A stretch of DNA of 59,642 bases, taken from NCBI GenBank assembly GCA_049969975.1, contig JBMFNW010000002.1, positions 1 through 59,642 of the forward strand, written 5' to 3'. Shown one piece after another: positions 42,779-59,247 of the stretch. The notes under the pieces are model-generated. The model made no database searches, had not been told where the DNA came from, and was given only the letters and a program-made list of their open reading frames with translations. The DNA is from Candidatus Nanoarchaeia archaeon (lineage in GTDB: Archaea > Nanobdellota > Nanobdellia > UBA10117). Within the stretch, counting starts at the first letter, position 1. Every line of letters starts with the position of its first letter. The position numbers and the translations under genes are program-made.

Positions 42779-42818
42779 AATAAAGAAATTTAAACAAAAA
42801 AAATAACAAAGATAAGAA

Positions 42819-43574: not shown

Positions 43575-43618
43575 TTAAATAGCAGAAAAAATTTAAATCA
43601 ACTATTTGTTTACATTTT

Positions 43619-45667: not shown

Positions 45668-45674
45668 AAAAGAA

Positions 45675-46352
45675 ATGGAACCAATAGAACAAACAGAACC
45701 AAAGCAAAGGACGCCAGCCAAAAAAACTTGGATAGCAAATATAATCAATGGCATTTATCATAAAAGTGAAGGTTGGACACCAGCTTATGTAGAATATAAT
45801 GCACAGCAGTATTCAAGAGTTTCAATTTTAGCAACAATAGTAAATAAATTTATTTCAGAGGATGGCAATTATGGTGCAGTAACGCTCGATGATGGTACAG
45901 AAACAATAAGAGCAAAAACATTCGGTCCTGATGTTGCTAAACTTCGCGATCTCGAATTAGGCACACTTGTGAGGTGTGTTGGAAAATTAAGACAATATTC
46001 AGATGAAGTTTACATTTCGCCAGAGTTTTTTTATATTATTAAAGATCCAAACTGGCTCTTACTGCATAGACTTCAACTTGGTGAGCCGATGCTAGCACCA
46101 AAGCCCGAAGAAGCAAAGCCGATTGTACCTGAGCAGCTTGCACTTGAGCAAATGAAAATAGAAGCGCAAACTGTCCAAGCAAAAATTCTTGCAACAATTC
46201 GAAAATTAGACAAAGGATTTGGTGCAGAGTTCGATTCTATAGTAAGAGAAGTAAATTTATCAGATGAAGATGTCAAATCCATACTTCTTGGTCTTTTAAG
46301 GACTGGTGATGTTTACGAGCCAAAAAAAGGTTACTATAAAGTTTTAGAGTAA
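45675..46352 (+). CDS. RPA32/Stn1-like OB-fold plus C-terminal winged-helix protein
   Basis: The OB pattern is RVSILATIVNKF..EDGNYGAVTLDDGTETIRAKTF.....L.LGTLVRCVGKLRQYSDEVYISPE.F..I.DPNW...H. The C-terminal wH is ILATIRKL..G...D.IV.E....DEDVK.IL..L...G.VYEPK.G.YK. It starts just after, or overlapping, the MCM stop. Confidence 0.6.
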   Translation: MEPIEQTEPKQRTPAKKTWIANIINGIYHKSEGWTPAYVEYNAQQYSRVSILATIVNKFISEDGNYGAVTLDDGTETIRAKTFGPDVAKLRDLELGTLVRCVGKLRQYSDEVYISPEFFYIIKDPNWLLLHRLQLGEPMLAPKPEEAKPIVPEQLALEQMKIEAQTVQAKILATIRKLDKGFGAEFDSIVREVNLSDEDVKSILLGLLRTGDVYEPKKGYYKVLE

Positions 46353-46439
46353 AACTTGAAGAGTAAAACCTTGAATATTAAAAAATAAACAAAAAAATTT
46401 TAGAATAAAACTTTTATAAAGAAATTTGATATTTGTTTT

Positions 46440-47012
46440 ATGGCCTTATTTAAATTACATTGGAAAGCTAGAGCTTTTGCAAACAAAGATTTTAAAGAAA
46501 TTTTTTGGGCCGAAATTATTTCAATTACGGGAGGTGTTTTGGCAGGTTTCTTTTTAGCACTTTCGCTTGACAAAATTTTGCTTATTCCAGGTATGTTTAT
46601 ACTCTTGCCAGGCTTTTTAGAAATGCGCGGAAATGTTTCTGGTTCTCTTGCAGCCAGACTTGGTACAGCACTTGATATTGGTGCGATTAAGCCCAAATTA
46701 TGTCAAAAATATGTTATTGAAAATTACTTAGCAACATTTTTTGAAGCCATTTTAGTAGCGTTGATTTTGGCAGTATTTGCTTTTTGTATTACTTGGTTTG
46801 TTTTTGGACAAATTTTGTTAAATTTATTCATAATTGCATTTCTTGCAGCAGTACTTTCAAATTTTATCGAATCAAGTCTTACTGTTTTAATAACATTTTG
46901 GCTGTATAAAAAAGGCATAGATCCAAATAATGTGATGGGGCCTTATGTTACAACTACAGGAGATATAGTTAGCGTGGTTTGCTTACTATTTGCAATTGCA
47001 ATATGTGGGTAA
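46440..47012 (+). CDS. MgtE-like divalent cation transporter membrane-domain protein (COG1824-type), first of pair
   Basis: PGFLEMRGNVSGSLAARLGTAL and DPNNVMGPYVTTTGDIVS motifs of the MgtE TM domain. No cytosolic MgtE-N or CBS part. Confidence 0.7.
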   Translation: MALFKLHWKARAFANKDFKEIFWAEIISITGGVLAGFFLALSLDKILLIPGMFILLPGFLEMRGNVSGSLAARLGTALDIGAIKPKLCQKYVIENYLATFFEAILVALILAVFAFCITWFVFGQILLNLFIIAFLAAVLSNFIESSLTVLITFWLYKKGIDPNNVMGPYVTTTGDIVSVVCLLFAIAICG

Positions 47013-47563
47013 TTAAAAAAATCCTAAGAGAAAGTTTAGTAATTTTAATAGTCGCATCTATTTTGAGCACAATTGGAGGCATCGGACTAGAAGCCTTAAA
47101 AACAAAATTTATTTTCTTAATACCTTTACTTATTTTAATACCTGCGCTAAATGATGCCATAGGTGATTTTGGCGTTATAATAAGTTCAAAATTTACAACA
47201 ATTCTTTACTCTGGAAAATTAAATAAAAAGAAGTGGTGGCAATCGCTAGAACTTAGCAACGAGTTTAAAACAATAAGTACTGTTGCACTATTTATGGCTT
47301 TTTACTTAGCTGTATTATCGATTTTTTTTGCAGTTTTGCAAGGTGCAAAAATAAATATTATTGAATGCTTGAAAATTGTTGCAGTTTCTTACATGTTGAT
47401 GGCTTCGCTTGTTTTAATAATATTTTTCTTAGCAGTAATTTTTGGTATTTGGGTTTATAAAAGAAAAGAAGACCCGAATAATTTCTTAATACCTATAACA
47501 ACAGCCATTGCAGATATTTGCAGTTTGCTTTTATTTTCTGCTTTTCTCACTTTTTTGTTTTAG
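47003..47563 (+). CDS. MgtE-like divalent cation transporter membrane-domain protein, second of pair
   Basis: IPALNDAIGDFGVIISSKF and DPNNFLIPITTAIADICS motifs. The ATG at 47003 overlaps the upstream gene by 10 nt. Confidence 0.7.
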   Translation: MWVIKKILRESLVILIVASILSTIGGIGLEALKTKFIFLIPLLILIPALNDAIGDFGVIISSKFTTILYSGKLNKKKWWQSLELSNEFKTISTVALFMAFYLAVLSIFFAVLQGAKINIIECLKIVAVSYMLMASLVLIIFFLAVIFGIWVYKRKEDPNNFLIPITTAIADICSLLLFSAFLTFLF

Positions 47564-48166
47564 TCTAAAGCCTGTGCAAATGATATAAATTTCTGCAGAA
47601 CCTTTCAAAGATGCTTTTGGTTTAAATTCTTTGACTTGCTTGAAGTATTGCCTAATTTCACGTAAAAAAAATCCATATTCAGGTCCTCTAAATGCTTTTG
47701 TTACAAAACAGCCATTTTGTTTTAAAACAGAAAGTGCAAAGTTAAGTGCGCATTTTGTTATTTTTAACGCTAAACCAATATCTTTGCTTTTAATTCCAGA
47801 AAATTTGGGTGCAGCATCACATAACACAACATCAGCTTTTTTTCCGTCTAATAATTCATTCACTTTTTTTATCGTGCTTTGTGCACAGATATCGCCAAGT
47901 ACTGCTTCGAAATTTTTCCCGAGATCTGAAATTGGTACAATATCAACTCCTATTACTAATCCATTTTTACCGACACAATCTAAAGCAACTTGTGACCAAC
48001 TTCCAGGTGCAGCTCCCAAATCAATAACTATATTGTCTTTCTTGATTATTTTAAATTTATTTTGTATTTCAAGCAATTTATAAGCTGAGCGTGCTCTAAA
48101 TTTTTCTTTTTTTGCTTTACGATAAAAGAACTCTTGTTTTCTTTTTTTAAACCAAACTTCAGACAT
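47531..48166 (-). CDS. rlmE: 23S rRNA (uridine-2'-O)-methyltransferase RlmE/FtsJ
   Basis: RSAYKLLEI and DLGAAPGSWSQV motifs, plus the catalytic pattern D...D..PK. Confidence 0.9.
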   Translation of the reverse strand: MSEVWFKKRKQEFFYRKAKKEKFRARSAYKLLEIQNKFKIIKKDNIVIDLGAAPGSWSQVALDCVGKNGLVIGVDIVPISDLGKNFEAVLGDICAQSTIKKVNELLDGKKADVVLCDAAPKFSGIKSKDIGLALKITKCALNFALSVLKQNGCFVTKAFRGPEYGFFLREIRQYFKQVKEFKPKASLKGSAEIYIICTGFRLKQKSEKSRK

Positions 48167-48171
48167 TATTT

Positions 48172-48218
48172 TTGTCCTTTTAATTTTTGCCCTTTAAATT
48201 TATTTTGCCTTTTAATTA
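48172..48218. repeat. three degenerate ~15-nt direct repeats (TTGYCCYTTTAAWTT) directly upstream of the rlmE start, in a divergent intergenic region
   Basis: Read directly: TTGTCCTTTTAATTT (48172-48186), TTGCCCTTTAAATTT (48187-48201) and TTGCCTTTTAATTA (48205-48218). Further TTTTTAAWTTA units follow up to about 48260. Confidence 0.55.
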
Positions 48219-48287
48219 TTTTTAAATTAATTTTTAATTTATTTTTAATTATTTTCCTGAAGCAACAAGTTTTTAAAGTTATTTTTT

Positions 48288-48596
48288 ATGTATTTTAACA
48301 TGAGTGTTGTGGGAAATGCAACAAAAATTAAATGTTCGAAAATATTTTTACGTGAAAAACCAATAGATTTGCTCTTTTGTCTAAGCAAAGGCTTAGCTAA
48401 GGAGAAATATCCATCGATGCTAGCCAAAGATTCGAAGTGTACCTACAGCCACACCGTGCATTTGTTACAGAAAATGGAGAAATTAGACATTGTACGGTTT
48501 GAAAAAAAAGGCAGATTAAAAATTGTAACATTGACTAAGAAAGGCCAAGAACTTGCAGATTTGTTTGAATCTTTGGCTAAAGTGTTTAATAAATAA
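48288..48596 (+). CDS. winged-helix transcriptional regulator (ArsR/MarR-like)
   Basis: PSMLAKDSKCTYSHTVHLLQKMEKLDIVRFEKKGRLKIVTLTKKGQELA, an HTH-plus-wing pattern. Confidence 0.65.
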   Translation: MYFNMSVVGNATKIKCSKIFLREKPIDLLFCLSKGLAKEKYPSMLAKDSKCTYSHTVHLLQKMEKLDIVRFEKKGRLKIVTLTKKGQELADLFESLAKVFNK

Positions 48597-48607
48597 AAGG
48601 AGGTAAA

Positions 48608-48763
48608 ATGGTTGAAGGCTACTGCGTTAAATGTAAGAAGAAAGTAGAGATTAAAAACCCTGTAAATGTTACGATGAAAGGAAAAGCAGGCAATAGGCCT
48701 GCTGTGAAAGGAGTTTGCCCAAATTGCGGAACAGCAGTATTTAGAATTGGTGCAAGTGCATAG
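48608..48763 (+). CDS. small zinc-ribbon protein (DUF5679-like, 51 aa; below ORF-track cutoff)
   Basis: Hand translation: MVEGYCVKCKKKVEIKNPVNVTMKGKAGNRPAVKGVCPNCGTAVFRIGASA*. CxxC...CxxC. A strong SD (AAGGAGGT) lies 5 nt upstream. Confidence 0.7.
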   Translation: MVEGYCVKCKKKVEIKNPVNVTMKGKAGNRPAVKGVCPNCGTAVFRIGASA

Positions 48764-48805
48764 AAAGAGCTAGAACCAAACATAGAATGGAGCGATGCTG
48801 AAATA

Positions 48806-49219
48806 ATGTTGGGCACAACTCACTTATTGTTTTCTTTTCTTTTTGGCTCTTTTATTTTTAAATTCGTTGGCGGAACATTTATAACAAAAGTTTTTTGGAC
48901 ATCTGCATTGCTAGCAGGCACTTTTTTGCCAGATTTGGATATGAAATTTAAATTTTTAGAGCACAGAGGCTTGTTGCATACTATTTGGTTACCTCTTGCA
49001 TTACTGATCCTTGGCGGTCTCGTAACAAAATTACAAATTTTATTTCTTCCTTTTGCAATTGGTTTTTTAAGCCATCTTTTTGCTGACGCACTAAATCCTT
49101 CAGGCGTGGCTTTTTTTGCTCCAATTTCAAATTACAGGCTTTGTGGGCCAATAAAAACAAATTCTTTATTAGAATTATGTTTGGTTATTTTTTTGCTGAT
49201 TTTGATTTTCTTTAGTTAA
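48806..49219 (+). CDS. membrane-bound metal-dependent hydrolase (DUF457/YdjM-like)
   Basis: N-terminal GTTHLLFS, HRGLLHT and SHLFADALNPSGV histidine motifs within 4 TM helices. Confidence 0.7.
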   Translation: MLGTTHLLFSFLFGSFIFKFVGGTFITKVFWTSALLAGTFLPDLDMKFKFLEHRGLLHTIWLPLALLILGGLVTKLQILFLPFAIGFLSHLFADALNPSGVAFFAPISNYRLCGPIKTNSLLELCLVIFLLILIFFS

Positions 49220-49690
49220 GTCAAAAATTTCTTTATCAAAAATTTCTCTATCTAATAGCACAGCATATTGCTCTATTCTTTCTATTGCAGGCTTTATAAG
49301 ATACTCTTTTATGTAATTGCTAATAATTTGCTCAATTGTGCCAAATTCAGTAATTCTGTAACCTTCGGGTACTTTTTCTACGAGCTTGTACATTTTCAAT
49401 CTTCTAAGTTGTCTCCGTAAATTTGGTTTTGAAGCACCTTTGATTGTGCTAAGGTTTTGTGCAAAATCTTCTATTTTGAGAATTTTTTTAGCTTTTCTTG
49501 CATTTAACAGCAATACAAAAATATCTACAATTATGTCTCGCGACTCACCGGGATTTAAAAGACCTATGGAAAGTAAAAATTTTTTGGCTAGCTCTCTTTG
49601 GCTTAAGCCTTTTGGCTCTTCGTATTTTCTTAAAGTAATTTCTTGAAGTGGTAAATCTTTAAGTGCCTTTTTTTCCACCCTTTTTTCCAT
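49175..49690 (-). CDS. putative winged-helix DNA-binding protein
   Basis: LSQRELAKKFLLSIGLL....SRDIIVDIF and LRRQLRRLKMYKLVEKVPEGYRITEFG (a wing-like segment). No family could be assigned. Confidence 0.45.
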   Translation of the reverse strand: MEKRVEKKALKDLPLQEITLRKYEEPKGLSQRELAKKFLLSIGLLNPGESRDIIVDIFVLLLNARKAKKILKIEDFAQNLSTIKGASKPNLRRQLRRLKMYKLVEKVPEGYRITEFGTIEQIISNYIKEYLIKPAIERIEQYAVLLDREIFDKEIFDLTKENQNQQKNNQT

Positions 49691-49759
49691 TTACACATTT
49701 TTCTTTTTATTGAATTTAAGCTTTTGGCTTTTTAGTTTGGATCGATTGATTTTAGCGAT

Positions 49760-50866
49760 TTAGCTTATACAATTTGCCTTTTCAACTGAAGAGTTTACTA
49801 TTTGACTTAATTTAATTTTATTTTCTAGTTGTTCAAGGGTTTTAAAATCAATTTTTGTTTTTGGTTTTTTTGCTACGAGTGCACAGCAATCGTGATATGG
49901 TTTAATCGAAAGTTCATAAGTGCCTATGCGCTTTGCAAGTTCAACAATTTCTTTTTTGTCTAAACCAATAAGAGGCCTAAAAATTGTTATATTTATGCCT
50001 CGGTCGATTGTTTTAAGATTGGAAATTGTTTGTGAAGCAACTTGTCCTAAACTATCTCCTAAAACTATTGCATCGTAGTTTTGGCTCTTAGCAATGCTTT
50101 CTGCAACTTTAAGCATAAATCGTCTAAAAAGTTGCAGCTCATAGTTTTGTAAATCTAATGTTGCTAGTTGAAAATCCCAAATAGGTACTAGCCAAAGTTT
50201 GCTTGTTTGAGTATATTTTTTTAATTGCTCGAACAATTCTAAAATTTTAGAATTCTTTATTTCATCAAGGCTACGGACAGAATAAAAGTGTAAAAAATCT
50301 ACTTTTGCACCGCGCTTTGCAATTAACCACGCAGCCACAGGACTATCTATGCCACCAGATAGCAAACAAAGTATTTTGCCAGAAACTCCAACAGGTAAAC
50401 CTCCCAAGCCATTTATTTTTTCTGTGTAAATAAGGGCACTTTCATTTAATATGTCAATAAAAATTTTAAGTTCAGGGTCCTTTGCTGAAAATTTGAATCC
50501 TTTGGCCTCACATGCAGAACCAATTTGTCTTGCAAGTTCAATCGATGTTAATGGAAATTTTTTATTTGCACGATTTATTTCAATTTTGAATGTTTTGGGG
50601 TTTTTTTCTGTCAAAATTTGTATGGTTTTTGAAGTTAAAACAGCAATATCTAATGGCAAAATTTCGACATTAGCAAACCAAGCAATACCAAAAATTTCTT
50701 TTAAAAGCGATGCTTTCGCGTCACAACCTTCTATTAAAATTGAGCAAAGCTCTTTTTTAATTTGCACATTTCCCAATTTTGCCCTAATATTTTGAATTAG
50801 CGTACTTTCAAATATATGTCTATTTTTACCTTTTAGTCCAATTTCTGCATATCTTACGAGTAACAT
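49760..50866 (-). CDS. thiI: tRNA 4-thiouridine synthase ThiI (THUMP + PP-loop, no rhodanese)
   Basis: LVRYAEIGLKGKNR, a THUMP domain, and the PP-loop LLSGGIDSPVAAW. Confidence 0.9.
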   Translation of the reverse strand: MLLVRYAEIGLKGKNRHIFESTLIQNIRAKLGNVQIKKELCSILIEGCDAKASLLKEIFGIAWFANVEILPLDIAVLTSKTIQILTEKNPKTFKIEINRANKKFPLTSIELARQIGSACEAKGFKFSAKDPELKIFIDILNESALIYTEKINGLGGLPVGVSGKILCLLSGGIDSPVAAWLIAKRGAKVDFLHFYSVRSLDEIKNSKILELFEQLKKYTQTSKLWLVPIWDFQLATLDLQNYELQLFRRFMLKVAESIAKSQNYDAIVLGDSLGQVASQTISNLKTIDRGINITIFRPLIGLDKKEIVELAKRIGTYELSIKPYHDCCALVAKKPKTKIDFKTLEQLENKIKLSQIVNSSVEKANCIS

Positions 50867-51052
50867 TTTTACTTAAGATTTGTTTACTCAAGTAAACACA
50901 TCTACGCTTTTAAATTTTATTCTCTTATAAATTATTTTGTAGAAACTCTCAAAAGGGTAGGGGATTTGATGAATGTTAAATTTACACTTCGGGCACTCAT
51001 AACTTCTGAGTAGTTTGTATTTATTATCTCAGTTGGCTTATTTCTCATATGC

Positions 51053-51853
51053 TTAAGCCTCAACCAAGTAGCGCTTAGCTTCTCGCGCCACCTCTTCCAT
51101 GAATTTGAGATATTCCTCGAGGCTAGTCCCAAGCTTTTTAACAAAGTCTGTATCTTTTGGTTTTAAAATTTTATTCAAGCTCCAGCCATCTAAGCTTCCC
51201 TGTTTCGCTCTAATAAACTCAAATCTAGGAACAATCCTTCTTTCAAAGGAATAGGTTAAAGCAGCCGGAAAATGCTCTATATCTTTTATACTAAAAGGAG
51301 TTTTTTCAGGATTTGTAATATAAGAATATCTGTCAAACATTTTTTGGATATCACACCCAAGAACTTGCGGACGTTTTTCAACAAATTTACTAATATCCTC
51401 AACTCCAAGCTCTCTTAGCCAATCAACTCTGTCTTGCATACCCTCTATATTACACGCAAGAACTTGCGGAAGTTGTTCAACAACTTTATCAATTTTCTTA
51501 ACTCCAAGCTCTCTTAGCCAATCAACTCTGTCTTGCATACTTTCTATACTATACGCAAGAACTTGCGGATGTTTTTCAACAACTTTATCAATTTTCTTAA
51601 CTCCTAGATCTTTCAGGTAAAGAATACTTGCAACTATTGTATATAGAGAGCCTCTAATCTTGTCAGGCTCTATTTCATAGCCTAGCTTTTCAAGCAGCGT
51701 GTCTTTTACTTGCTGCTTATAGCCGTAGTTTACACTTTCATCCAGCTTTTCAGTTAAGTTGGCTATATATTCCTTTTGCTCTTGCCGACCAGGCTCGTAA
51801 GCTTGCAGAGCCTGAACAAGATCATCCAAAGTTTCCATATTGACTTTTTCCAT
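51053..51853 (-). CDS. mTERF-repeat protein (mitochondrial transcription termination factor-like family)
   Basis: Three consecutive 33-aa units: L(K/R)(D/E)LGV(K/E)(K/D)I(D/S)K(V/F)VE..PQVL(A/G)(Y/C).I..M.DR..(W/Y). A terminal unit FPAALTYSFERRIVPRFEFI matches the P..L.YSLE.RI.PR..FL mTERF signature. Confidence 0.7.
   Translation of the reverse strand: MEKVNMETLDDLVQALQAYEPGRQEQKEYIANLTEKLDESVNYGYKQQVKDTLLEKLGYEIEPDKIRGSLYTIVASILYLKDLGVKKIDKVVEKHPQVLAYSIESMQDRVDWLRELGVKKIDKVVEQLPQVLACNIEGMQDRVDWLRELGVEDISKFVEKRPQVLGCDIQKMFDRYSYITNPEKTPFSIKDIEHFPAALTYSFERRIVPRFEFIRAKQGSLDGWSLNKILKPKDTDFVKKLGTSLEEYLKFMEEVAREAKRYLVEA
51345..51620. repeat. intragenic tandem 99-nt repeats (about 3 units) within the mTERF-like gene
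   Basis: The 41-nt block AACTCCAAGCTCTCTTAGCCAATCAACTCTGTCTTGCATAC occurs identically at 51401-51441 and 51500-51540. CAAGAACTTGCGGA occurs three times. CAACAACTTTATCAATTTTCTTAACTCC occurs twice. Confidence 0.85.
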
Positions 51854-51872
51854 ATTTACTTAGAAGTGACAA

Positions 51873-51883
51873 ATATTTAAAAA
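51873..51883 (-). promoter_or_regulatory. TATA-like box upstream of the mTERF-like gene (short or absent leader)
   Basis: The reverse strand reads GCTTTTTAAATATTTGTCAC. The box is centred about 25 nt upstream of the ATG at 51853. Confidence 0.35.
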
Positions 51884-51914
51884 GCTTTCTAATTATTTGC
51901 TGTGTTGTATAATT

Positions 51915-51937
51915 AAAGAAATTTGACAAATTTCTTT
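51915..51937. other. perfect 10-bp inverted repeat with 3-nt loop (AAAGAAATTT-GAC-AAATTTCTTT)
   Basis: Read directly from the sequence. It lies between the 48-aa ORF and the mTERF-like gene. It could be a terminator hairpin or an operator. Confidence 0.5.
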
Positions 51938-52041
51938 CTATTTTTATTTCAAAAAATCAAATACAGCCCACTTTTGAAAGCAGATTATAAGTCCAAAATT
52001 TTCTTTTTGCTTCTTTGTACATATTGCGCTTCTTTGTCGAT

Positions 52042-52188
52042 CTAACAGATTTCCTTAAGCGCATCTAACCAGGTATCAAGGAATTTAGGGTTAATTAAAA
52101 CTTTCCTCTCTTCAAAGTCTTTTATTAGTTTCTTTCCAAATCTCTTTTTATCTTCGTACTCCTTACGTCTTTTTCTCTTAGCAGCCAT
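52042..52188 (-). CDS. possible 48-aa highly basic protein (below ORF-track cutoff)
   Basis: Hand translation: MAAKRKRRKEYEDKKRFGKKLIKDFEERKVLINPKFLDTWLDALKEIC*. Preceded by AAAAGGAGGTTTA-ATG, one of the best SD matches in the window. Confidence 0.45.
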   Translation of the reverse strand: MAAKRKRRKEYEDKKRFGKKLIKDFEERKVLINPKFLDTWLDALKEIC

Positions 52189-52387
52189 TAAACCTCCTTT
52201 TCCACCTTCATTTTACTTAGGAAAAGCCTCAGAGCCAAAATTCTGTAAGAGATTGGCCAAAGGAGTTGTTTATTCGATAAAAAGCCTAAAGACTTTTAAA
52301 CACCTAAAGAATTATAAGGCAACATGTCCTATTTTCAAAGTTGTTGCTTAATTGTGCAACACAGCATCTCTTGTCTAATATTTTTTA

Positions 52388-52903
52388 TTAATACCATTCT
52401 TTTTTAAGATGTAAAATGTATGCAAGTACATTTGTGCCAAAATGAGCTAGCGGTGTTAATACAAAAATTATGATGAGCATTGGTATTGATGGCTTTTCAA
52501 CCAATGCACAAAAAAGAACAGCAAAAACAACAAAGCCAAGTTGATCTAGTCCAGGTAGAGCTTGTCCTCTTGCAAGTCCAAGTCTTCTTTTAATAAATGA
52601 GCCAACCAAATCTCCAAGCAGTGCACCAAAGCTTAAAAGAAAACCTGCTAAAAGTCTGCTTTGGAGCAGGCCAACAAAAGTTCCTGTAAGTACTCCTCCA
52701 ACAAATCCTCCCCATGTTTTTCCTTGACCAAAAATTGGCTTGCCGTTCCATGTTTTGTTAAAATCTATTGGTAAATTATGTTTGCCTAGAAGTTTTGCCC
52801 AAATAACTGGGCTAGCGTTTGCAAAATATGCAGGTAAAATAAATAAAATCGAATTTAAAAGTATTGTAAGCAAATTTGTTAAATTTGCAAATGAATTTAT
52901 CAT
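52388..52903 (-). CDS. carS: CDP-archaeol synthase (CarS, DUF46 family)
   Basis: LPAYFANASPV, PIDF....NGKPIFGQGKTWGG, GALLGDLVGSFIKRRLGL and PGLDQL motifs. Confidence 0.85.
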   Translation of the reverse strand: MINSFANLTNLLTILLNSILFILPAYFANASPVIWAKLLGKHNLPIDFNKTWNGKPIFGQGKTWGGFVGGVLTGTFVGLLQSRLLAGFLLSFGALLGDLVGSFIKRRLGLARGQALPGLDQLGFVVFAVLFCALVEKPSIPMLIIIFVLTPLAHFGTNVLAYILHLKKEWY

Positions 52904-52910
52904 TTTATAA

Positions 52911-53726
52911 TTATAATAAATCTAAGGGGCTTTTAATTTTTTTTAATTCGGTGGCTGAAACTTTTGTATATATTTGAGTTGTACTAAGATCTGCATGTCC
53001 GAGCAGCTCTTGTATTTTTCTTATGTCTACGCCAGCTTCGAGTAAATGTGTAGCAAAACTATGTCTAAGTGTGTGCGGCGAAACTTTCTTAGTTATGCCT
53101 GCTTGTTCCGCAGCTTTTTGTACTATTGCTTGGACAGTTCTTACGCTGTATTTTGGCCCAAAGCCAGTAAATATAAACTCTTCAGGGTTTTTGTCTTTTA
53201 GGAGCTCCTGAAGTTTTGGCAATAGTTTTTTAGATATGATAAAAAAGCGATCTTTTGCACCTTTACCAGATCTTATCCAGCCAATACCATTTTCGAGCTC
53301 AAAATCTTTTACTTTTAAATTTACAACTTCGCTAACACGCATGCCTGTTGAGTAAAGGAGTTCTAGTAAAAGTTTGTGTTTTGGATTTTTTGGTGTAGAA
53401 ATGAGTTTTGAAACTTCTTCTTTTGTTAAAACTACAGGAAGATGTTTTGGTATTTGGATTTTTTTTGGTAAGTCGACTGGTTTTTTAAAAATATCTTCGA
53501 ATAAGAATTTTAGTGCAGCCTTTGCAAGAGCTACACTTTTTATACAAACTTTTTTTTCATTTAGCAAATGTGCCAAGAAAGCTCTTGCAGTATTTGAGTT
53601 TGGCTCTTGCCCACTCAAAAATTCAAAATATTTTTTTATGAAATAAGTGTATGTTTTGACAGTTCTTGGACTTGCACCTCTCAGCTGAAGTTCAATAGCA
53701 GCTTTTTCCACTTCATTGTATTGCAT
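52911..53726 (-). CDS. xerA: tyrosine recombinase XerA (XerC/D-like)
   Basis: An SAM-like N-terminal domain. Catalytic motifs ...GMRVSEV..., HTLRHSFATHLLEAGVDIRKIQELLGH and the tyrosine in TQIYTKV. Confidence 0.85.
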   Translation of the reverse strand: MQYNEVEKAAIELQLRGASPRTVKTYTYFIKKYFEFLSGQEPNSNTARAFLAHLLNEKKVCIKSVALAKAALKFLFEDIFKKPVDLPKKIQIPKHLPVVLTKEEVSKLISTPKNPKHKLLLELLYSTGMRVSEVVNLKVKDFELENGIGWIRSGKGAKDRFFIISKKLLPKLQELLKDKNPEEFIFTGFGPKYSVRTVQAIVQKAAEQAGITKKVSPHTLRHSFATHLLEAGVDIRKIQELLGHADLSTTQIYTKVSATELKKIKSPLDLL

Positions 53727-53780
53727 AATTTATAAAAATAAATTTTATTTAAAAAGTTTTAAATTTTAAAAGTTCAAATT

Positions 53781-53828
53781 TTAAATAAGCAATAAATATA
53801 AAATCGATAAATATTAAATAAGCAATAA
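53781..53828. repeat. 15-nt perfect direct repeat TTAAATAAGCAATAA (53781-53795 and 53814-53828) in the xerA/rtcB divergent intergenic region
   Basis: Read directly from the sequence. The 18-nt spacer contains ATCGAT. Confidence 0.5.
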
Positions 53829-53853
53829 GTGTTTGATAATTTAATTGATAACC

Positions 53854-55329
53854 ATGGTTAAAATACCTACAGAACGGCCACCTTTGAAAAGGCTTTCAGA
53901 TGTTATTTGGGAAATTTCTACAGATTATAAAAAAGACGAGCCGAAGATGCTCGTGCCTGCTTGGATTTTTGCAACACCAAAACTTCTCGAAGCAATGGAC
54001 TTAGCTGTTTTTGAACAAATAACGAATGTTGCTTGTTTGCCAGGCATTCAAAAAGCAGCCATGGCGATGCCAGATGCCCATTGGGGTTACGGTTACCCGA
54101 TAGGCGGCGTGGCTGCATTTGATTTAGAAAAAGGCATAATAAGTCCTGGTGGCATTGGCTACGATATTAATTGTGGCATGCGTCTAATAAGAACAAATCT
54201 TACTTATGCAGAAGTTAAGCCGAAGTTAAAAGAACTTGTCGATACTCTTTTCGAAATGGTGCCCGCAGGCGTTGGTGCTCATGGCTTTATTAAACTAACT
54301 CCACAGCAACACAAAGAAGTAATGGTAGAAGGAGCAGATTGGTGTATTAAAAACGGATATGGTTGGCCAGAAGATAAAGAGCGCATAGAAGATTTCGGTG
54401 CACTTCCAGGGGCAGATCCAAGTAAAATTTCACAAAAAGCAATTTCTAGAGGAGCACCAGAGCTTGGAACTCTTGGAAGCGGAAATCATTATTTAGAAAT
54501 TCAGCGTGTTCTGCCAGAAAATATTTTTGATGCTAAATTGGCTGAGAAATTTGGCATTTTTCCAGACCAAGTTGTTGTAATGGTGCATTGTGGAAGTAGA
54601 GGTTTTGGCCATCAAATTTGTACTGATTATGTAAATATATTTAGACGAAAAATGCCTGAATGGGGAATAAAAGTTAGAGACATTGAATTGGCTTGTGCAC
54701 CTTTCAAAACAAAGGAAGCTCAAGATTATTTTGCAGCAATGAAATGTGCAGCAAACTATGGTTTTGGAAACAGACAACTAATTACGCACAGAATTAGGGA
54801 AGCTTTTGAAAAAGTTTTTGGAACAAGTGCTGAAAAGTTAGGCATGCATGTTATTTATGATGTAGCACATAACATTGCAAAGATTGAAGAGCATAGATTT
54901 AATGGAAGCAAAAAAGAGCTCATAGTGCATAGAAAAGGTGCAACTAGATGTTTTGGGCCTGGTAGAAAAGAGCTAGCGCCAATTTACAGAAATATTGGCC
55001 AGCCAGTTATAGTTGGTGGAAGTATGGAGACTGGCTCTTACTTATGTCTTGGTACAGAGCAAGCTATGAAACTTACATTTGGTAGCACTATGCACGGTTC
55101 TGGTAGGACAATGTCGAGAACAGCTGCAAAAAAGAAAGTCCGAGGAACAGAACTCCAAAAAGCAATGCAAGAGCATGGCATTTATGTTAGATCTGTATCT
55201 ATGGCAGGTCTTGCCGAAGAAGCTGGTTTTGCTTACAAAGATATTTCGGAAGTTGTCGATACTATGGAAATTGCTGGTGTGAGCAAAAAAATCGTTGCTT
55301 TGAAGCCAATAGGGAATGTAAAGGGATGA
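53854..55329 (+). CDS. rtcB: RNA-splicing ligase RtcB
   Basis: MPDAHWGYGYPIGGV, GYDINCGMR, GSGNHYLEIQ and HCGSRGFGHQ motifs, plus the C-terminal HGSGR. Confidence 0.95.
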   Translation: MVKIPTERPPLKRLSDVIWEISTDYKKDEPKMLVPAWIFATPKLLEAMDLAVFEQITNVACLPGIQKAAMAMPDAHWGYGYPIGGVAAFDLEKGIISPGGIGYDINCGMRLIRTNLTYAEVKPKLKELVDTLFEMVPAGVGAHGFIKLTPQQHKEVMVEGADWCIKNGYGWPEDKERIEDFGALPGADPSKISQKAISRGAPELGTLGSGNHYLEIQRVLPENIFDAKLAEKFGIFPDQVVVMVHCGSRGFGHQICTDYVNIFRRKMPEWGIKVRDIELACAPFKTKEAQDYFAAMKCAANYGFGNRQLITHRIREAFEKVFGTSAEKLGMHVIYDVAHNIAKIEEHRFNGSKKELIVHRKGATRCFGPGRKELAPIYRNIGQPVIVGGSMETGSYLCLGTEQAMKLTFGSTMHGSGRTMSRTAAKKKVRGTELQKAMQEHGIYVRSVSMAGLAEEAGFAYKDISEVVDTMEIAGVSKKIVALKPIGNVKG

Positions 55330-55397
55330 GTTGTATTTAAAACAGAATTATCTATAATATCGAAAAGTTTATATAGTAAAAAAACCATTTATTACTT

Positions 55398-55646
55398 ATG
55401 GGTGGCAAGACATTACGCGGTGTGCAAAGCTTTAATTTAATGAATGAAAAGGAAGCAAAGCAATACTTTAGCATACTTAAAAAAATCGTTAAGTCTAAAT
55501 TAAAAGTTCCAATAATGGCAAAAGGTATGATGAGGCTTATTGATTTTTCAAAAAAATTAGCTAAATTAGATATTTATCCACCTTTTGAAACTCATTGGAC
55601 AAAGGAAGAAAAACTCATACTCGGCAAGTTCTTAAGTGGCCAGTAG
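55398..55646 (+). CDS. hypothetical 82-aa protein
   Basis: An open frame in stop-rich AT DNA. TATA-like TTTATATA lies about 27 nt upstream, which suggests a leaderless transcript. No recognisable family. Confidence 0.4.
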   Translation: MGGKTLRGVQSFNLMNEKEAKQYFSILKKIVKSKLKVPIMAKGMMRLIDFSKKLAKLDIYPPFETHWTKEEKLILGKFLSGQ

Positions 55647-55662
55647 CCATGTGCCTCCTATG

Positions 55663-55688
55663 ACCGGCCAGTTGCCGAGCTGGCCGGT
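55663..55688 (+). other. GC-rich perfect hairpin (ACCGGCCAG-TTGCCGAG-CTGGCCGGT)
   Basis: A 9-bp stem read directly from the sequence. It sits 17 nt after the stop of the 82-aa ORF, within a GC-rich patch (55640-55690) in otherwise AT-rich DNA. GGCCAG occurs three times within about 45 nt. Confidence 0.5.
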
Positions 55689-55763
55689 AACTTAATTATA
55701 CTCGATTGTGTTATATAGTTTAAAACACAGTATTTAAAAGAATTTGTATGCTATATAATTGAA

Positions 55764-57137
55764 ATGGACTTAGAGGAAAAACTAAAAAGATTTCAAAATA
55801 AAGAAACCGAGCGCATAGATTTTAAAACTGTTTTAGAGCTTTCTGCTTATCTCGATGGTTGGAAAGAAAAACTAGATGCTTTTAAAAAATGTGAAATTTG
55901 TGTCCAAAACAAAACTCTAAACTTAGCTTTTGAAAGAAAAGATAAATATTTAGATAACGATATTACTTTTTTTAGACTTTATTTTACCATACCTTTTGTT
56001 ATGAATTATTTGACGAATAATTTAGATGGAGTAAATTTCGTAACAGCACATACAATTAGTCATTACGCAAGTATTAATATTCATGATGTCTACACTTGTC
56101 TAAAAGAATTGGAAAGACAAAAACTTGTAGAAGAAAAAGAAATTTCAAAGTTTGAAGAATATAAAAGTATAAAAGAAAAGAAAAAAAGAAATAAAGAGCC
56201 ACACAAGTGTTTAAAGAATTTTGAAAAAAATTTTGAGCAATTAGTGAATTATTTGTCTGATTTGTCTGGAGAGAAACAAAAAGCTCAGAAAGAATTTGAG
56301 CAACTTGATACAACACTTAAATCTGGAATTGAACTTTCACTAGAAGAAAAAGAGCTTTTAAGCAAGTCAAAGCCACAGTATTGTTATCGTTTAACTGATG
56401 AAGGTAAAACTTTGCTAAATAATTTTAAAAATAATTTTAATGAAGTTTATGGAGAAGCAGAAAAATTACTTAGTGAAATTAAAGAAAGAAGTAAGCAAAG
56501 CTTAGAGAATTTAGTTTGGAAGCCCGGTAAAATTTTGAAAATTTTTCACATACCTGAAAAAGAAAAAGAGTATTTTTATGAACTTTATAAAAACTTAATC
56601 GAATCTATGGTGCTAAAAAATGCAAAGCATTTGTTTGATATTTATCATAGAAATTTTGGCGGTATTTGGCTTGCATGCATACCTGAAGAAATAAAAGAAG
56701 GAGAAAAACCAGTTGCAGAAATTTATGCACGCGGTTCAGATATTTGTTTGAAAGATGGAATTTTACCGCTTAAAAAAATAGGTTTTTCTGACCCAGATTT
56801 TTTAAATGAATATTTTAATTTGCTTGAAAAAGATAAAAGTGAAAAAGATAAAAAGAAAGAGTATGATTTAATAAATAAAGCAATTCGAAATTACAAATTT
56901 TGTTTTGCAAATTCAAAAGACGAAATTCCTTTTTGTAACGAGTTAAAAATTTGTTATGATGGAAGAGTTGTTTCTTTTTATACAAATGGAAATGTTAGCA
57001 CAATTAATCTCTGCGACGGCAGGAGTATAAATTTGAATGGATTTAAAGGTTTGGTTTTCTTACCAAATTATTTTAGTTCTGTAAAAATGGAGAAAAATTC
57101 TGTAAAAAATTCTGTAAAAGTATTCGAGAAAAAATAG
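55764..57137 (+). CDS. hypothetical 457-aa protein with a putative split winged-helix and coiled-coil insert
   Basis: A long open frame. The HTH-like segment HTISHYASINIHDVYTCLKELERQKLVEE is separated by ~85 K/E-rich residues from the wing-like YCYRLTDEGKTLL. The C-terminal ~220 aa match no family I recognise. Confidence 0.6.
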   Translation: MDLEEKLKRFQNKETERIDFKTVLELSAYLDGWKEKLDAFKKCEICVQNKTLNLAFERKDKYLDNDITFFRLYFTIPFVMNYLTNNLDGVNFVTAHTISHYASINIHDVYTCLKELERQKLVEEKEISKFEEYKSIKEKKKRNKEPHKCLKNFEKNFEQLVNYLSDLSGEKQKAQKEFEQLDTTLKSGIELSLEEKELLSKSKPQYCYRLTDEGKTLLNNFKNNFNEVYGEAEKLLSEIKERSKQSLENLVWKPGKILKIFHIPEKEKEYFYELYKNLIESMVLKNAKHLFDIYHRNFGGIWLACIPEEIKEGEKPVAEIYARGSDICLKDGILPLKKIGFSDPDFLNEYFNLLEKDKSEKDKKKEYDLINKAIRNYKFCFANSKDEIPFCNELKICYDGRVVSFYTNGNVSTINLCDGRSINLNGFKGLVFLPNYFSSVKMEKNSVKNSVKVFEKK

Positions 57138-57175
57138 ACAGAAACCTTTTAAAATCATTTAATTGATTTTGCACT

Positions 57176-58168
57176 ATGGGGCATATAAAAAGAAAGAGAC
57201 CGAGAAGAGGAAGTCTTGGATTTTGGCCTAGAAAAAGAGCTAAACGAATTTATCCAGCCCCGAATTTTGCAAGAATTGACGAACCAAAACTTTTAGGCTT
57301 TTTGGGATATAAAGCAGGAATGACTTCTGTAATATTTATTGATAATAGACCAAAATCTCCAACAAAAGGAGAAGAAGTGCACACGCCTGCAACAGTTTTA
57401 GAGTGTCCTCCATTAACCGTTTTTGGTATAAGGCTTTACGGCAAAACAACATACGGATTAAAAGTGCTTGGTGAAGTTTGGGCAGAGAAACTTGATAAAA
57501 ATTTGGCAAGAAAAATAAAATTGCCAAAAAAGCAAAAATGGACTGTTGAAAAACTTAAAGAACTTTTACCAAAATCGAGTGAAGTAAGAGTTTTAATTCA
57601 TACAAATCCGGCTGAAAGTGGGCTTGGGAAAAAGAAGCCAGAAATTTTAGAAATACCTATTGGCGGTTCTGTTGAGCAACAATTTAACTATGCAATTTCT
57701 ATTTTTGGAAAACAAGTACCAATAACAGAAATTTTTAAACCAGGGCAATATGTTGATGTTCATGCCGTAACAAAAGGGAAAGGATTTGAAGGCGATATTA
57801 AAAGATTTGGAATAAAGTTGGCAAGCCACAAAGCAGAATTTGGTCGGAGACATCGAGGCACGATGGGCCCAATAACGCCTGCAGTTACAGGTTGGTGGAT
57901 TGCACAACCTGGACAGTTTGGTTACAACACTAGAACAGAATACAACAAACAAATATTAAAAATTGCAATGCCAAAAGAAATTAATCCAAATCCAATATCT
58001 GGCTTTATACGCTACGGTTTAGTTAAAAATACGTACGTATTGCTTGCCGGCTCGGTGCCCGGCCCAAAAAAGAGAACAATCATTCTTACATTTCCAATAA
58101 GAAAAAATAAATTGCCTGAACAAGCACCTGAAATAGTCCACATTTCAACAAAATCGCAACAAGGTTAA
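57176..58168 (+). CDS. rpl3: 50S ribosomal protein uL3
   Basis: PRRGSLGFWPRKRA, FKPGQYVDVHAVTKGKGFEG and the rest of the uL3 pattern. Confidence 0.95.
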   Translation: MGHIKRKRPRRGSLGFWPRKRAKRIYPAPNFARIDEPKLLGFLGYKAGMTSVIFIDNRPKSPTKGEEVHTPATVLECPPLTVFGIRLYGKTTYGLKVLGEVWAEKLDKNLARKIKLPKKQKWTVEKLKELLPKSSEVRVLIHTNPAESGLGKKKPEILEIPIGGSVEQQFNYAISIFGKQVPITEIFKPGQYVDVHAVTKGKGFEGDIKRFGIKLASHKAEFGRRHRGTMGPITPAVTGWWIAQPGQFGYNTRTEYNKQILKIAMPKEINPNPISGFIRYGLVKNTYVLLAGSVPGPKKRTIILTFPIRKNKLPEQAPEIVHISTKSQQG

Positions 58169-58169
58169 A

Positions 58170-58979: not shown

Positions 58980-58980
58980 A

Positions 58981-59247
58981 ATGGAAATAAGTCCATATAA
59001 AATTTTGAAATATCCTCTCTCGACAGAAAAAGCAGTTCGGCAAATGGAAGCAGAAAATAAATTAATATTTATTGTTGACCCAAAAGCAACAAAAGCAGCT
59101 ATAAAATGGGCTGTTGAGAAAGCTTTCAATGTTAAAGTAAAATCTGTAAACACTACAATTCTTCGCGACGGCAGTAAAAAAGCATATATAAAGCTTAAAC
59201 CAGAAACGCCAGCTTCAGAAGTTACAACTGCTCTTGGGTTGACGTAA
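58981..59247 (+). CDS. rpl23: 50S ribosomal protein uL23
   Basis: [46 protein letters not shown]. Confidence 0.9.

What the first reader, a model, noticed from the sequence alone, without database searches (positions are those of the whole stretch)
51053..51853. mTERF-repeat protein in an archaeal genome, with recently homogenised 99-nt internal repeats
The 266-aa product contains consecutive 33-aa units: LKDLGVKKIDKVVEKHPQVLAYSIESMQDRVDW, LRELGVKKIDKVVEQLPQVLACNIEGMQDRVDW and LRELGVEDISKFVEKRPQVLGCDIQKMFDRYSY. A terminal FPAALTYSFERRIVPRFEFI completes it. Together these match the mTERF motif (LG.....I..I....P.(I/L)L..S.E..L.P...FL and FP..(L/F).YSLE.RI.PR). To my knowledge the mTERF family consists of organellar nucleic-acid-binding regulators of animals and plants, and prokaryotic members are rare and uncharacterised. 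Two repeat units share a 41-nt identical DNA block and longer near-identical stretches, which indicates a recent duplication or gene conversion. The gene sits with a tiny basic ORF in a ~1.5-kb non-core gap between thiI and carS, consistent with horizontal acquisition. It could act as a transcription terminator or roadblock, or as a nucleic-acid-binding factor of a symbiont.
Basis: partly seen in the sequence, partly recalled or inferred. Interest (0 to 1): 0.7.

Follow-up and report, generated by a model that had tools for sequence, protein, structure and literature searches.

The report
Fast-evolving mTERF repeat protein in archaeon
A tiny symbiotic-type (DPANN) archaeon encodes a genuine member of the mTERF helical-repeat family, which recent papers describe as confined to animal and plant organelle biology. 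The gene belongs to an undescribed archaeal subfamily and diverges unusually fast between two near-identical strains.

Summary
ORF 51053-51853 (-) encodes a 266-aa protein that hits Pfam mTERF at E=1.3e-24 (87 bits; cut-off 23). It matches human MTERF3 and MTERF4 by sequence. A high-confidence AlphaFold model (pLDDT 94.9) has only mTERF structures as significant Foldseek hits. The 99-nt repeat (2.7 copies, 89% matches, one 41-nt identical block) is real.

The contig is archaeal, and an independent Nanoarchaeia MAG reproduces the whole thiI-mTERF-orf48-carS arrangement. Contamination or a mis-join is therefore excluded.

New findings:
- The protein belongs to a coherent subfamily that shares an N-terminal ~70-aa domain absent from the named eukaryotic hits. 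Members lie on archaeal-type contigs and in Woesearchaeota and Pacearchaeota MAGs.
- Repeat units are more alike within a protein than between proteins across the subfamily, which indicates concerted evolution.
- Between two 99%-identical strains, mTERF has 26 nonsynonymous and 6 synonymous changes, against 16 and 47 in 22 flanking genes (Fisher p=2e-7; omega about 1.1 against 0.09).

Function is inferred, not shown. I propose an accessory, modular nucleic-acid-binding protein whose specificity turns over quickly. The origin of the family (ancient, or inter-domain transfer) is unresolved. Recent papers state that mTERF is absent from prokaryotes.

The parts
51053..51853 (-). mTERF-family coding sequence: 266 aa plus stop. 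A second in-frame ATG (M6) lies at 51838.
   Evidence: ORF list. Pfam PF02536 at E=1.3e-24. PDB sequence hits to MTERF3 and MTERF4. AF2 model with pLDDT 94.9. Foldseek top 13 hits are all mTERF structures.
51638..51853 (-). N-terminal domain of about 70 aa (aa 1-72) with three predicted helices. It is specific to the archaeal-type subfamily.
   Evidence: Conserved block in alignment A1. An HMM of these columns hits about 50 proteins, always at the N-terminus of proteins of about 90-410 aa (most 200-410), and none of the named eukaryotic mTERFs. Helices H6-18, H24-40 and H43-56 in the model.
51320..51616 (-). Three tandem 33-aa (99-nt) mTERF units: aa 80-112, 113-145 and 146-178.
   Evidence: TRF period 99, 2.7 copies, 89% matches. 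Family D1 in the repeat finder. Unit comparison and the 41-nt identical block. Both sister-MAG contigs break here, at 51582 and 51576.
51056..51319 (-). C-terminal cap (aa 179-266). It includes the conserved FPxxLxYSxExRIxPR motif (aa 195-210, 51224-51271).
   Evidence: Nearly invariant columns P196, I207, P209, R210, D234 and F237 in A1. The region aligns to the end of the Pfam profile.
51128..51175 (-). Patch of strain-to-strain hypervariability (aa 227-242), with 10 of 16 residues differing from the sister strain.
   Evidence: Twelve nucleotide differences within 45 nt. The sister allele resembles the more distant homologue P0023 here, which suggests a recombination or conversion tract.
51874..51890 (-). 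Archaeal-type promoter candidate: a purine-rich BRE-like AGAAAGC followed by TTTTTAAATA. The box ends 21 nt before the ATG, which is a leaderless-type layout.
   Evidence: Sequence. The same TTTAAATA box ends 20-21 nt before the ATGs of the Xer recombinase gene and the ORF at 11440. The motif count in the window is not above chance (19 observed, 18.4 expected), so this is positional evidence only.
52042..52188 (-). Adjacent orphan ORF of 48 aa, basic. It is not shown to belong to the feature.
   Evidence: No Pfam, NCBIfam or PADLOC hit; the only PHROG hit is at noise level, E=0.075. No homologue apart from itself among 5.8 billion proteins. It is identical in the sister MAG, where it is called as a gene.

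Best explanation
SHOWN: The gene encodes a bona fide mTERF-fold helical-repeat protein native to a DPANN (Nanoarchaeia) archaeon. It belongs to a coherent, undescribed prokaryotic subfamily with three parts: a subfamily-specific N-terminal three-helix domain, a variable number of near-identical 33-aa mTERF units, and a conserved C-terminal cap (FPxxLxYSxExRIxPR). The units evolve in concert, through duplication or conversion within each gene. The gene is by far the fastest-diverging coding sequence between two 99%-identical strains, with omega of about 1.1 and a nonsynonymous rate 2.7 times the local neutral rate.

INFERRED: Like characterised mTERFs (MTERF1 on dsDNA; MTERF3, MTERF4 and plant mTERF9 on rRNA), it binds a nucleic acid along the concave face of the superhelix, with each unit contributing contacts. 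It is an accessory factor rather than a housekeeping one. Its binding specificity is being re-tuned by unit turnover and by amino-acid replacement around the short PxxL helix and in the C-terminal cap. The most likely action is sequence-specific binding that blocks or pauses transcription, or guides processing of particular transcripts, possibly those of a variable target such as a mobile element. The target and the DNA-versus-RNA preference are unknown.
For: Identity:
- Pfam mTERF at 87 bits against a 23-bit cut-off.
- phmmer against PDB gives MTERF3 (3m66) at 3.7e-8 and MTERF4 (4fzv) at 3.6e-7.
- The AF2 model has pLDDT 94.9 and pTM 0.88.
- The top 13 Foldseek PDB hits are all MTERF4, MTERF3 or MTERF1, with probability 1.00 and TM about 0.6. 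The next hit has E>3.

Native archaeal gene:
- Archaeal SRP RNA, CarS, ThiI, Xer and RtcB lie on the same contig.
- Sister MAG GCA_049970555.1 reproduces thiI-mTERF and mTERF-orf48-carS-xer-rtcB at 99% identity.
- The TATA spacing matches that of other genes in the window.

Subfamily:
- There are 1496 representative hits, of which 44 have E<=1e-30.
- The N-terminal domain occurs in about 50 of 183 proteins and in no named eukaryotic protein.
- In the independent C-terminal cap, 85% of the nearest neighbours of subfamily members are also subfamily members, against a 44% background.
- Gene contexts: L003 and L006 carry archaeal markers (aRF1, RadA, RpoL, NAC, Sec61-beta; SRP54, TruD, S-layer), while L002 and L004 carry compact microbial gene sets without archaea-specific markers.
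- Woesearchaeota and Pacearchaeota MAGs carry members.

Concerted repeats: within-protein unit identity is 0.6-0.97, against about 35-45% identity between proteins.

Fast evolution:
- mTERF has 26 nonsynonymous and 6 synonymous differences, against 16 and 47 in 22 other genes (Fisher p=2.4e-7).
- 26 nonsynonymous changes were observed where 9.5 are expected at the background neutral rate (p=7e-6).

Accessory status:
- No conserved neighbours were found.
- Relatives sit at different genomic locations.
- The gene has the highest GC3 of 48 ORFs.
Against: - No binding data exist, and I could not compute an electrostatic surface.
- The protein is acidic overall (pI 5.4). The window's proteome has a median pI of 9.1 and the subfamily a median of 8.9. 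This weakens the assumption of a strongly basic nucleic-acid-binding groove.
- An omega of about 1 with raised pS (6 observed, 2.4 expected; p=0.04) also fits relaxed constraint combined with import of a divergent allele by recombination. The aa 227-242 patch looks like a conversion tract.
- Only two alleles are available, both MAG consensus sequences. Four of the amino-acid differences lie within 60 nt of a contig end inside the repeat.
- The variable unit positions (16, 18, 21, 23, 32) were not mapped onto a nucleic-acid complex.
- No link to defence systems, phages or viruses was found.
Confidence: 0.6

Rival explanations
1. Housekeeping ribosome-biogenesis or rRNA-binding factor. It would work like human MTERF3 and MTERF4 or plant mTERF9, binding rRNA and perhaps recruiting a modifying enzyme.
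For: The best sequence and structure matches are to MTERF4 and MTERF3, which act on the mitoribosomal large subunit. The best named profile hits include plant MTERF9. The gene lies among RNA-related genes such as thiI, rtcB and ribosomal proteins.
Against: Omega is about 1.1, and protein divergence between 99%-identical strains is 9.8%. The neighbouring L3, L4 and L23 genes have pN<=0.003. There is no conserved neighbour or NSUN4-like partner. Only 2 hits appeared among the GTDB species representatives, although that search was limited by its patterns. Repeat number varies between relatives.
Confidence: 0.17
2. Decaying remnant. The gene was acquired horizontally and is now under relaxed constraint, drifting towards a pseudogene without a current function.
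For: Omega is about 1.1 with raised pS. Codon composition is atypical, with the highest GC3 of 48 ORFs. The 61%-identical relative P0023 looks degenerate: one unit, a faint Pfam hit, and read-through into the next gene. The acidic pI is unusual for the family.
Against: The reading frame is intact in both strains. All nearly invariant family residues are kept (P96, P129, P162, P196, I207, P209, R210, D234, F237). The fold prediction is very confident. The nonsynonymous rate exceeds the local neutral rate (p=7e-6), which drift alone does not explain. A native-type promoter is present.
Confidence: 0.13
3. Protein-protein interaction scaffold. The helical repeat has been re-used to bind a protein partner, for example a host or symbiont factor, rather than nucleic acid.
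For: The overall pI is acidic at 5.4, and the N-terminal domain has pI 4.5. Helical repeats often bind proteins, and MTERF4 itself binds NSUN4 through its C-terminal part (PDB 4fzv). Fast evolution fits an interaction interface under conflict.
Against: No partner gene is conserved nearby. The C-terminal third is basic (pI 8.9). Most subfamily members are basic (median pI 8.9). To my knowledge, all characterised mTERFs bind DNA or RNA.
Confidence: 0.08
4. Assembly artefact: a eukaryotic contaminant or a chimeric join.
For: Papers describe the family as eukaryote-only. The gene's composition is slightly atypical.
Against: Two contigs of an independent NCBI MAG cover both junctions at 99% identity and break only inside the 99-nt repeat. 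GC is 0.35-0.37 (window kb 0.349, gene 0.375) against about 0.33 for the window. There are no introns. Homologues lie on other contigs with archaeal-type gene contexts, up to 478 kb long.
Confidence: 0.02

Closest known systems
Human MTERF4 (MTERFD2) and MTERF3 (MTERFD1); PDB 4fzv, 4fp9, 7o9k, 3m66
   Same: Same Pfam family. Sequence matches are significant (E=3.7e-8 to 7e-7). The fold is the same all-helical superhelical repeat (Foldseek E about 1e-6, TM about 0.6). Size is similar, at about 240-270 structured residues.
   Different: Identity is only 18-23%. There is no mitochondrial presequence. The host is archaeal, with no organelle. The N-terminal domain is specific to the archaeal subfamily. 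The repeat units are near-identical and evolve in concert, whereas the human motifs are highly degenerate. No NSUN4-like partner was found nearby. The protein is acidic.
Human MTERF1; PDB 3mva, 3n6s
   Same: Same fold and family (Foldseek E about 3e-3; phmmer E 0.005-0.05 over two units). It is the mechanistic model for modular binding of dsDNA and a transcription roadblock.
   Different: The match is weaker than to MTERF3 and MTERF4. The base-flipping and guanine-contacting residues of MTERF1 were not examined. The window protein has fewer repeats.
Plant and algal organellar mTERFs (e.g. MTERF9, MTERF2, and M-class mTERFs under positive selection)
   Same: These are the best named profile hits, at about 30% identity. 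The repeat motif and the C-terminal YSLExRIxPR motif are shared. Plant M-class mTERFs also show rapid adaptive evolution at putative nucleic-acid-binding sites (bioRxiv 10.1101/2022.01.18.476766).
   Different: The plant proteins are longer, at about 280-690 aa against 266 aa here. They are known to carry transit peptides (established knowledge, not tested here). They lack the archaeal N-terminal domain. The relationship is unresolved in my crude neighbour-joining tree.
Modular repeat nucleic-acid binders (TALE, PPR, PUF). The comparison is with how they work, not a claim of membership.
   Same: They also have tandem near-identical helical units in which variation is concentrated at a few positions. 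Repeat-number variation and fast evolution are shared too.
   Different: There is no sequence or HMM relationship: Pfam reports no PPR, TAL or PUF hit at E<=1. No one-unit-one-base code is known for mTERFs, and the variable positions here are less sharply defined than TALE RVDs.

Membership tests
mTERF (Pfam PF02536) | The sequence scores above the curated gathering threshold of the family HMM. | tested here: met
   87.2 bits against a cut-off of 23.1, E=1.3e-24, covering aa 72-237 and profile positions 145-313 of 314.
mTERF (Pfam PF02536) | Tandem motifs of about 30-33 aa, each made of two helices plus a short helix, with a conserved Pro and Leu pattern. | tested here: met
   Three 33-aa units carry LxxLGVxxIxKxVxxxPxVLxxxIxxMxxRVxW. 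The model shows a repeating helix pattern: H88-94, H96-100, H103-115; H121-127, H129-132, H136-149; H154-160, H162-166, H169-179.
mTERF (Pfam PF02536) | Superhelical all-alpha fold superposable on solved MTERF1, MTERF3 and MTERF4 structures. | tested here: met
   The Foldseek PDB top 13 hits are all mTERF structures, with probability 1.00, E from 1e-6 to 1e-2 and TM 0.47-0.60. There are no other hits with E<3. The model has pLDDT 94.9.
mTERF (Pfam PF02536) | Significant direct sequence similarity to experimentally characterised members. | tested here: met
   phmmer against PDB gives MTERF3 at 3.7e-8, MTERF4 at 3.6e-7 and MTERF1 at 4.8e-3.
mTERF (Pfam PF02536) | Nuclear-encoded and organelle-targeted in a eukaryote. 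This is the context of all characterised members, not part of the Pfam definition. | tested here: not met
   The gene lies on an archaeal contig with SRP RNA and CarS and in a Nanoarchaeia MAG. By inspection the N-terminus (pI 4.5) is acidic and predicted helical, not presequence-like; no targeting-peptide predictor was run.
mTERF (Pfam PF02536) | Binds DNA or RNA through a positively charged concave groove. | not testable with these tools
The overall pI of 5.4 urges caution, and the C-terminal third has pI 8.9.
MTERF1-type terminator | Base-flipping stacking residues and the guanine-contacting arginines of MTERF1. | not tested
   The alignment to MTERF1 covers only about 70 residues at E about 0.005. 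That is too weak to assign equivalent residues.
Archaeal-type mTERF subfamily (defined here) | N-terminal domain of about 70 aa, followed by mTERF units and the C-terminal cap, on a prokaryotic contig. | tested here: met
   The N-domain HMM scores E=1.6e-22 for the window protein. Cap-region neighbours are mostly subfamily members. Homologues lie in archaeal-type contexts.
PPR / TALE / PUF modular repeat proteins | Match to the family HMM. | tested here: not met
   No such Pfam family appears among hits at E<=1.
Known anti-phage defence proteins (PADLOC) and phage protein families (PHROGs) | Significant HMM match. | tested here: not met
   Only noise-level hits appeared, with E>=7e-4 and no matched stretch.

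The most novel reading that the evidence does not exclude
DPANN archaea carry an old, self-standing branch of the mTERF family. Two things would follow. First, the organellar mTERFs of eukaryotes either descend from a prokaryotic ancestor or were exchanged between domains. Second, in these archaea the proteins would act as re-programmable sequence-specific nucleic-acid binders, kept under diversifying selection through unit duplication or conversion plus replacements at contact positions. This would be an archaeal counterpart of the plant Rf-PPR and M-class mTERF arms race, perhaps directed at mobile elements or host-derived nucleic acids.
Probability: 0.15. Interest if true: 0.85.

Novelty: new variant of a known kind. 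Interest (0 to 1): 0.62.

Why it matters
[quoted passage not shown] A coherent archaeal subfamily, together with bacterial-context members, shows that this statement is out of date. It also reopens the question of where the organellar gene-expression regulators of eukaryotes came from.

The archaeal proteins are small and intron-free, with few and nearly identical repeats. That makes them attractive minimal models for how mTERF units read nucleic acids. The extreme strain-level divergence marks this gene as one of the few loci in a reduced DPANN genome that is under non-purifying evolution. Such loci are where host, virus or mobile-element interactions are usually found.

Tried and rejected
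- Single-sequence AlphaFold gave a poor model (pLDDT 62.5). I replaced it with the alignment-based model.
- The search for related loci with alignments A1, A2 and A3 failed because no stretch was conserved enough.
- Scans with the single window protein found nothing in genome contigs, viral contigs or metagenome contigs.
- Alignment A4 found no viral relative, 2 GTDB genomes and 6 short metagenome contigs. I did not analyse the 6 short contigs further.
- A neighbour-joining tree of the 79-column C-terminal cap was star-like. It could not place the archaeal group relative to eukaryotes, so I make no donor claim.
- BFVD fold search gave no viral match.
- PADLOC, PHROGs and NCBIfam gave nothing meaningful.
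- Rfam found nothing in 50800-52450 at either the gathering or the E<=1 threshold.
- The intergenic folds were unremarkable: z=+0.66 for 52189-52387 and z=-2.3 for the thiI-mTERF spacer.
- The orf48 homologue search returned only the ORF itself.
- A neighbour comparison across 8 loci found no conserved partner gene.
- A sigma-70 promoter and terminator scan was at chance level and does not apply to archaea.
- The literature searches that combined mTERF with archaea, with DPANN lineage names, and with prokaryotes plus horizontal gene transfer surfaced no paper describing archaeal mTERFs among the results listed.
Full report
**1. Observation**

Tandem Repeats Finder reports a 99-nt period, 2.7 copies, 89% matches and no indels at 51348-51611. 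The repeat finder reports three in-register copies at 51329-51625.

In coding register the units are aa 80-112, 113-145 and 146-178. Units 1 and 2 differ at 10 of 99 nt, of which 7 are nonsynonymous. The longest identical block between neighbouring copies is 41 nt, as claimed. The flanking genes are ThiI (49760-50866) and CDP-archaeol synthase (52388-52903), followed by a Xer-type tyrosine recombinase and RtcB.

**2. Is it an mTERF?**

Four lines of evidence agree.
- Pfam PF02536 scores 87.2 bits against a gathering score of 23.1 (E=1.3e-24). The match covers aa 72-237 and profile positions 145-313 of 314.
- phmmer against PDB sequences gives human MTERF3 (3m66, 3.7e-8), MTERF4 (4fzv, 3.6e-7; 7o9k, 7e-7) and, more weakly, MTERF1.
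- A single-sequence AlphaFold run was poor (pLDDT 62.5). With a 23-sequence alignment (A1) the model reached pLDDT 94.9 and pTM 0.88, and shows a regular helix-helix-helix pattern in each unit.
- The top 13 Foldseek hits against the PDB are all MTERF4, MTERF3 or MTERF1, with probability 1.00 and TM about 0.5-0.6. Nothing else has E below 3.

Family membership by sequence and by fold is therefore established.

**3. Is it really archaeal, and is the contig sound?**

The window carries an archaeal SRP RNA (35488-35761) and two tRNAs, together with CarS. GC content is about 0.33 throughout, and 0.349 in the kilobase that holds the gene.

The only close protein hit was a partial protein from an NCBI MAG labelled Candidatus Nanoarchaeia archaeon (GCA_049970555.1).
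- Its contig JBMFMS010000019.1 (L001) is 99.1% identical to window 42386-51582. It carries the mTERF C-terminal part next to thiI, then YdjM, FtsJ, MgtE, MCM and TBP.
- A second contig of the same MAG, JBMFMS010000021.1 (L010), is 99.0% identical to window 51576-59642. It carries the mTERF N-terminal part, then orf48, carS, xer, rtcB and L3/L4/L23.

Both sister contigs end inside the 99-nt repeats. The complete arrangement is therefore reproduced independently, and a chimeric join or eukaryotic contaminant is excluded.

A TTTAAATA box, preceded by a purine-rich stretch, ends 21 nt before the ATG. The same box sits 20-21 nt before the ATGs of the xer gene and the ORF at 11440. This layout suggests a native leaderless-type archaeal promoter. 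The evidence is positional only, because the motif count in the window is at chance level.

**4. Relatives**

A full HMMER scan of 1.84 billion representative proteins found 1496 hits at E<=1e-3, 512 at E<=1e-10 and 44 at E<=1e-30.

The best hits are unnamed metagenomic proteins of about 250-400 aa with 35-45% identity. They align over the whole length, including an N-terminal block of about 70 aa. An HMM of that block hits about 50 of the 183 proteins collected. The hit is always at the N-terminus of proteins of about 90-410 aa (most 200-410), and none of the named eukaryotic proteins is hit.

The C-terminal cap was not used to define the group. In that region, 85% of the ten nearest neighbours below 55% identity are also group members, against a 44% background. 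For 43 of 48 members, the best distant in-group hit beats the best out-group hit. The window protein itself is ambiguous on this test, scoring 61 bits in-group and 64 out-group.

Gene contexts of five members are prokaryotic, and two carry clear archaeal markers.
- One contig carries aRF1, RadA, RpoL, NAC, Sec61-beta and ScpB (L003).
- One carries CDC48, HerA and AsnC (L004).
- One carries SRP54, TruD and an S-layer protein (L006).
- One carries GrpE, DnaK and DnaJ (L005).
- One is a 478-kb contig (L002).

Two GTDB species representatives carry members: a Candidatus Woesearchaeota MAG and a Candidatus Pacearchaeota MAG. After these, the best named hits are plant and algal organellar mTERFs (MTERF9, MTERF2, Riccia and a eukprot (EukProt) sequence) at about 30% identity.

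Two other hits carry N-terminal segments that look like signal peptides. They sit among two-component-system genes on bacterial-type contigs (P0033 in L011 and P0013 in L012).

A neighbour-joining tree of the cap was unresolved, so I make no claim about the direction or age of any inter-domain transfer.

NCBIfam has no model that hits the protein, which explains why NCBI labels it 'hypothetical'. JGI labels one relative 'mTERF domain-containing protein'.

**5. Literature**

Two mTERF papers state that the family is missing in fungi and prokaryotes: bioRxiv 10.1101/2022.01.18.476766 and BMC Plant Biol 2026, PMC12977773. In the search that combined mTERF with DPANN lineage names, none of the 15 listed papers mentions mTERF. 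The archaeal subfamily is visible in databases but apparently undescribed.

**6. Concerted evolution of the units**

Across the subfamily, units within one protein are 60-97% identical. Examples are P0012 at 97%, P0156 at 85% and P0018 at 82%. Different proteins share only about 35-45% identity, and unit number varies from about 2 to 6 or more.

Within-protein differences are most frequent at unit positions 16 and 18, which flank the invariant Pro17, and at positions 21, 23 and 32. In the window, units 1 and 2 differ at positions 2, 3, 15, 16, 22, 23 and 26. I could not map these positions onto a nucleic-acid complex.

**7. Strain-level divergence (new finding)**

Against the sister MAG, the mTERF gene carries 26 nonsynonymous and 6 synonymous differences, giving pN 0.041, pS 0.037 and omega about 1.1. 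The 22 other genes on the two contigs together carry 16 nonsynonymous and 47 synonymous differences, giving pN 0.0014, pS 0.0148 and omega 0.09.
- Fisher's exact test gives p=2.4e-7. After dropping the four amino-acid changes within 60 nt of the contig end, p=2.7e-6.
- The nonsynonymous count exceeds what the background neutral rate would give (9.5 expected; p=7e-6).
- pS is also raised (6 observed, 2.4 expected; p=0.04).
- Ten of the changes fall in aa 227-242. There the sister allele resembles the more distant relative P0023, which points to a recombination or conversion tract.

The adjacent orf48 and most of the intergenic DNA are unchanged. The thiI-mTERF spacer carries indels.

Diversifying selection, or import of divergent alleles by recombination, fits these data. 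Strong purifying selection does not. The limits are that only two alleles are available and both are MAG consensus sequences.

**8. Composition and neighbourhood**

The gene has the highest GC3 of 48 long ORFs (0.308, against a mean of 0.217 and sd of 0.034). Its tetranucleotide distance from the window mean is at the 97.6th percentile even with two repeat units removed.

No neighbour is conserved across eight loci. The 61%-identical relative P0023 lies between a radical-SAM gene and Ku/ligase, and looks degenerate. Together these results indicate an accessory, mobile-in-position gene. They give only weak support for horizontal acquisition and none for a recent eukaryotic donor.

orf48 has no homologue apart from itself and no meaningful family hit. 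I cannot say whether it is a real gene.

No RNA family was found in the gap between thiI and carS, and the spacers fold unremarkably.

**9. Mechanism**

Shown: the fold, the modular units, unit turnover, fast divergence and accessory status.

Inferred from established knowledge of the family: MTERF1 binds dsDNA as a roadblock, and MTERF3, MTERF4 and plant mTERF9 bind rRNA. By analogy, this protein binds a nucleic acid along its concave face. Its specificity would be re-tuned by unit duplication or conversion and by replacements near the PxxL helix and in the cap. The most plausible output is sequence-specific blocking or pausing of transcription, or guidance of RNA processing, for a non-housekeeping and possibly variable target.

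The main caveat is the acidic pI of 5.4, against a window proteome median of 9.1 and a subfamily median of 8.9. This keeps a protein-binding role and a decay scenario alive. No link to known defence systems, phage families or viral contigs was found.

**10. Verdict**

This is a real and correctly identified feature. It is a member of a known fold family but of an undescribed archaeal variant, with its own N-terminal domain, concerted repeats and no organelle. It shows striking strain-level divergence. Function and evolutionary origin remain open. I list the decisive computations and experiments separately.

Noticed in passing
window 55764-57137 (+): This 457-aa ORF was not searched against any family library. 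It is a second divergence hot spot against the sister MAG, with 7 nonsynonymous and 7 synonymous differences plus a 9-nt indel. It lies in the lowest-GC kilobase of the window (0.269).
   Followed up: partly
window 51874-51881, 53746-53753, 11412-11419: A TTTAAATA box ends 20-21 nt before the ATG of the mTERF gene, the xer gene and the ORF at 11440. This suggests leaderless-type archaeal promoters in this genome. The total motif count is at chance level (19 observed, 18.4 expected).
   Followed up: partly
window 51832-51861: A 15-nt direct repeat (TTTCCATATTGACTT / TTTCCATATTTACTT) spans the start codon and produces two in-frame ATGs (M1 and M6). The N-domain HMM alignment begins at residue 7 of the window protein, and one homologue (P0024) aligns from residue 6, so the true start may be M6.
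   Followed up: no
L011 1341-2534; L012 4277-6562: These mTERF-domain proteins (397 aa and 761 aa) have N-termini that look like signal peptides. They lie on bacterial-type contigs among histidine-kinase and response-regulator genes, one in NCBI assembly GCA_045805065.1. This may be a separate bacterial, and perhaps secreted, mTERF group.
   Followed up: partly
L007 5732-6448: P0023 is a 61%-identical relative with only about one repeat unit and an extended, non-homologous C-terminus that overlaps the next gene. It lies between a radical-SAM gene and a Ku/DNA-ligase pair, and is probably a decaying copy at a different genomic location.
   Followed up: partly
window 52042-52188 (-): This 48-aa basic orphan ORF is identical in the sister MAG, where it is called as a gene. 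It has no homologue apart from itself among 5.8 billion proteins and no meaningful family hit.
   Followed up: yes
window 59500-59642: Thirty-six of the 90 differences from sister contig L010 fall in the last 140 nt of the window. BLAST alignment starts only at L010 position 202. This indicates divergence or rearrangement at the contig end.
   Followed up: no
window 50939-51030: The thiI-mTERF spacer differs from the sister strain by a 14-nt insertion or deletion and three single-base indels. Its RNA fold is marginally better than shuffled controls (z=-2.3).
   Followed up: partly
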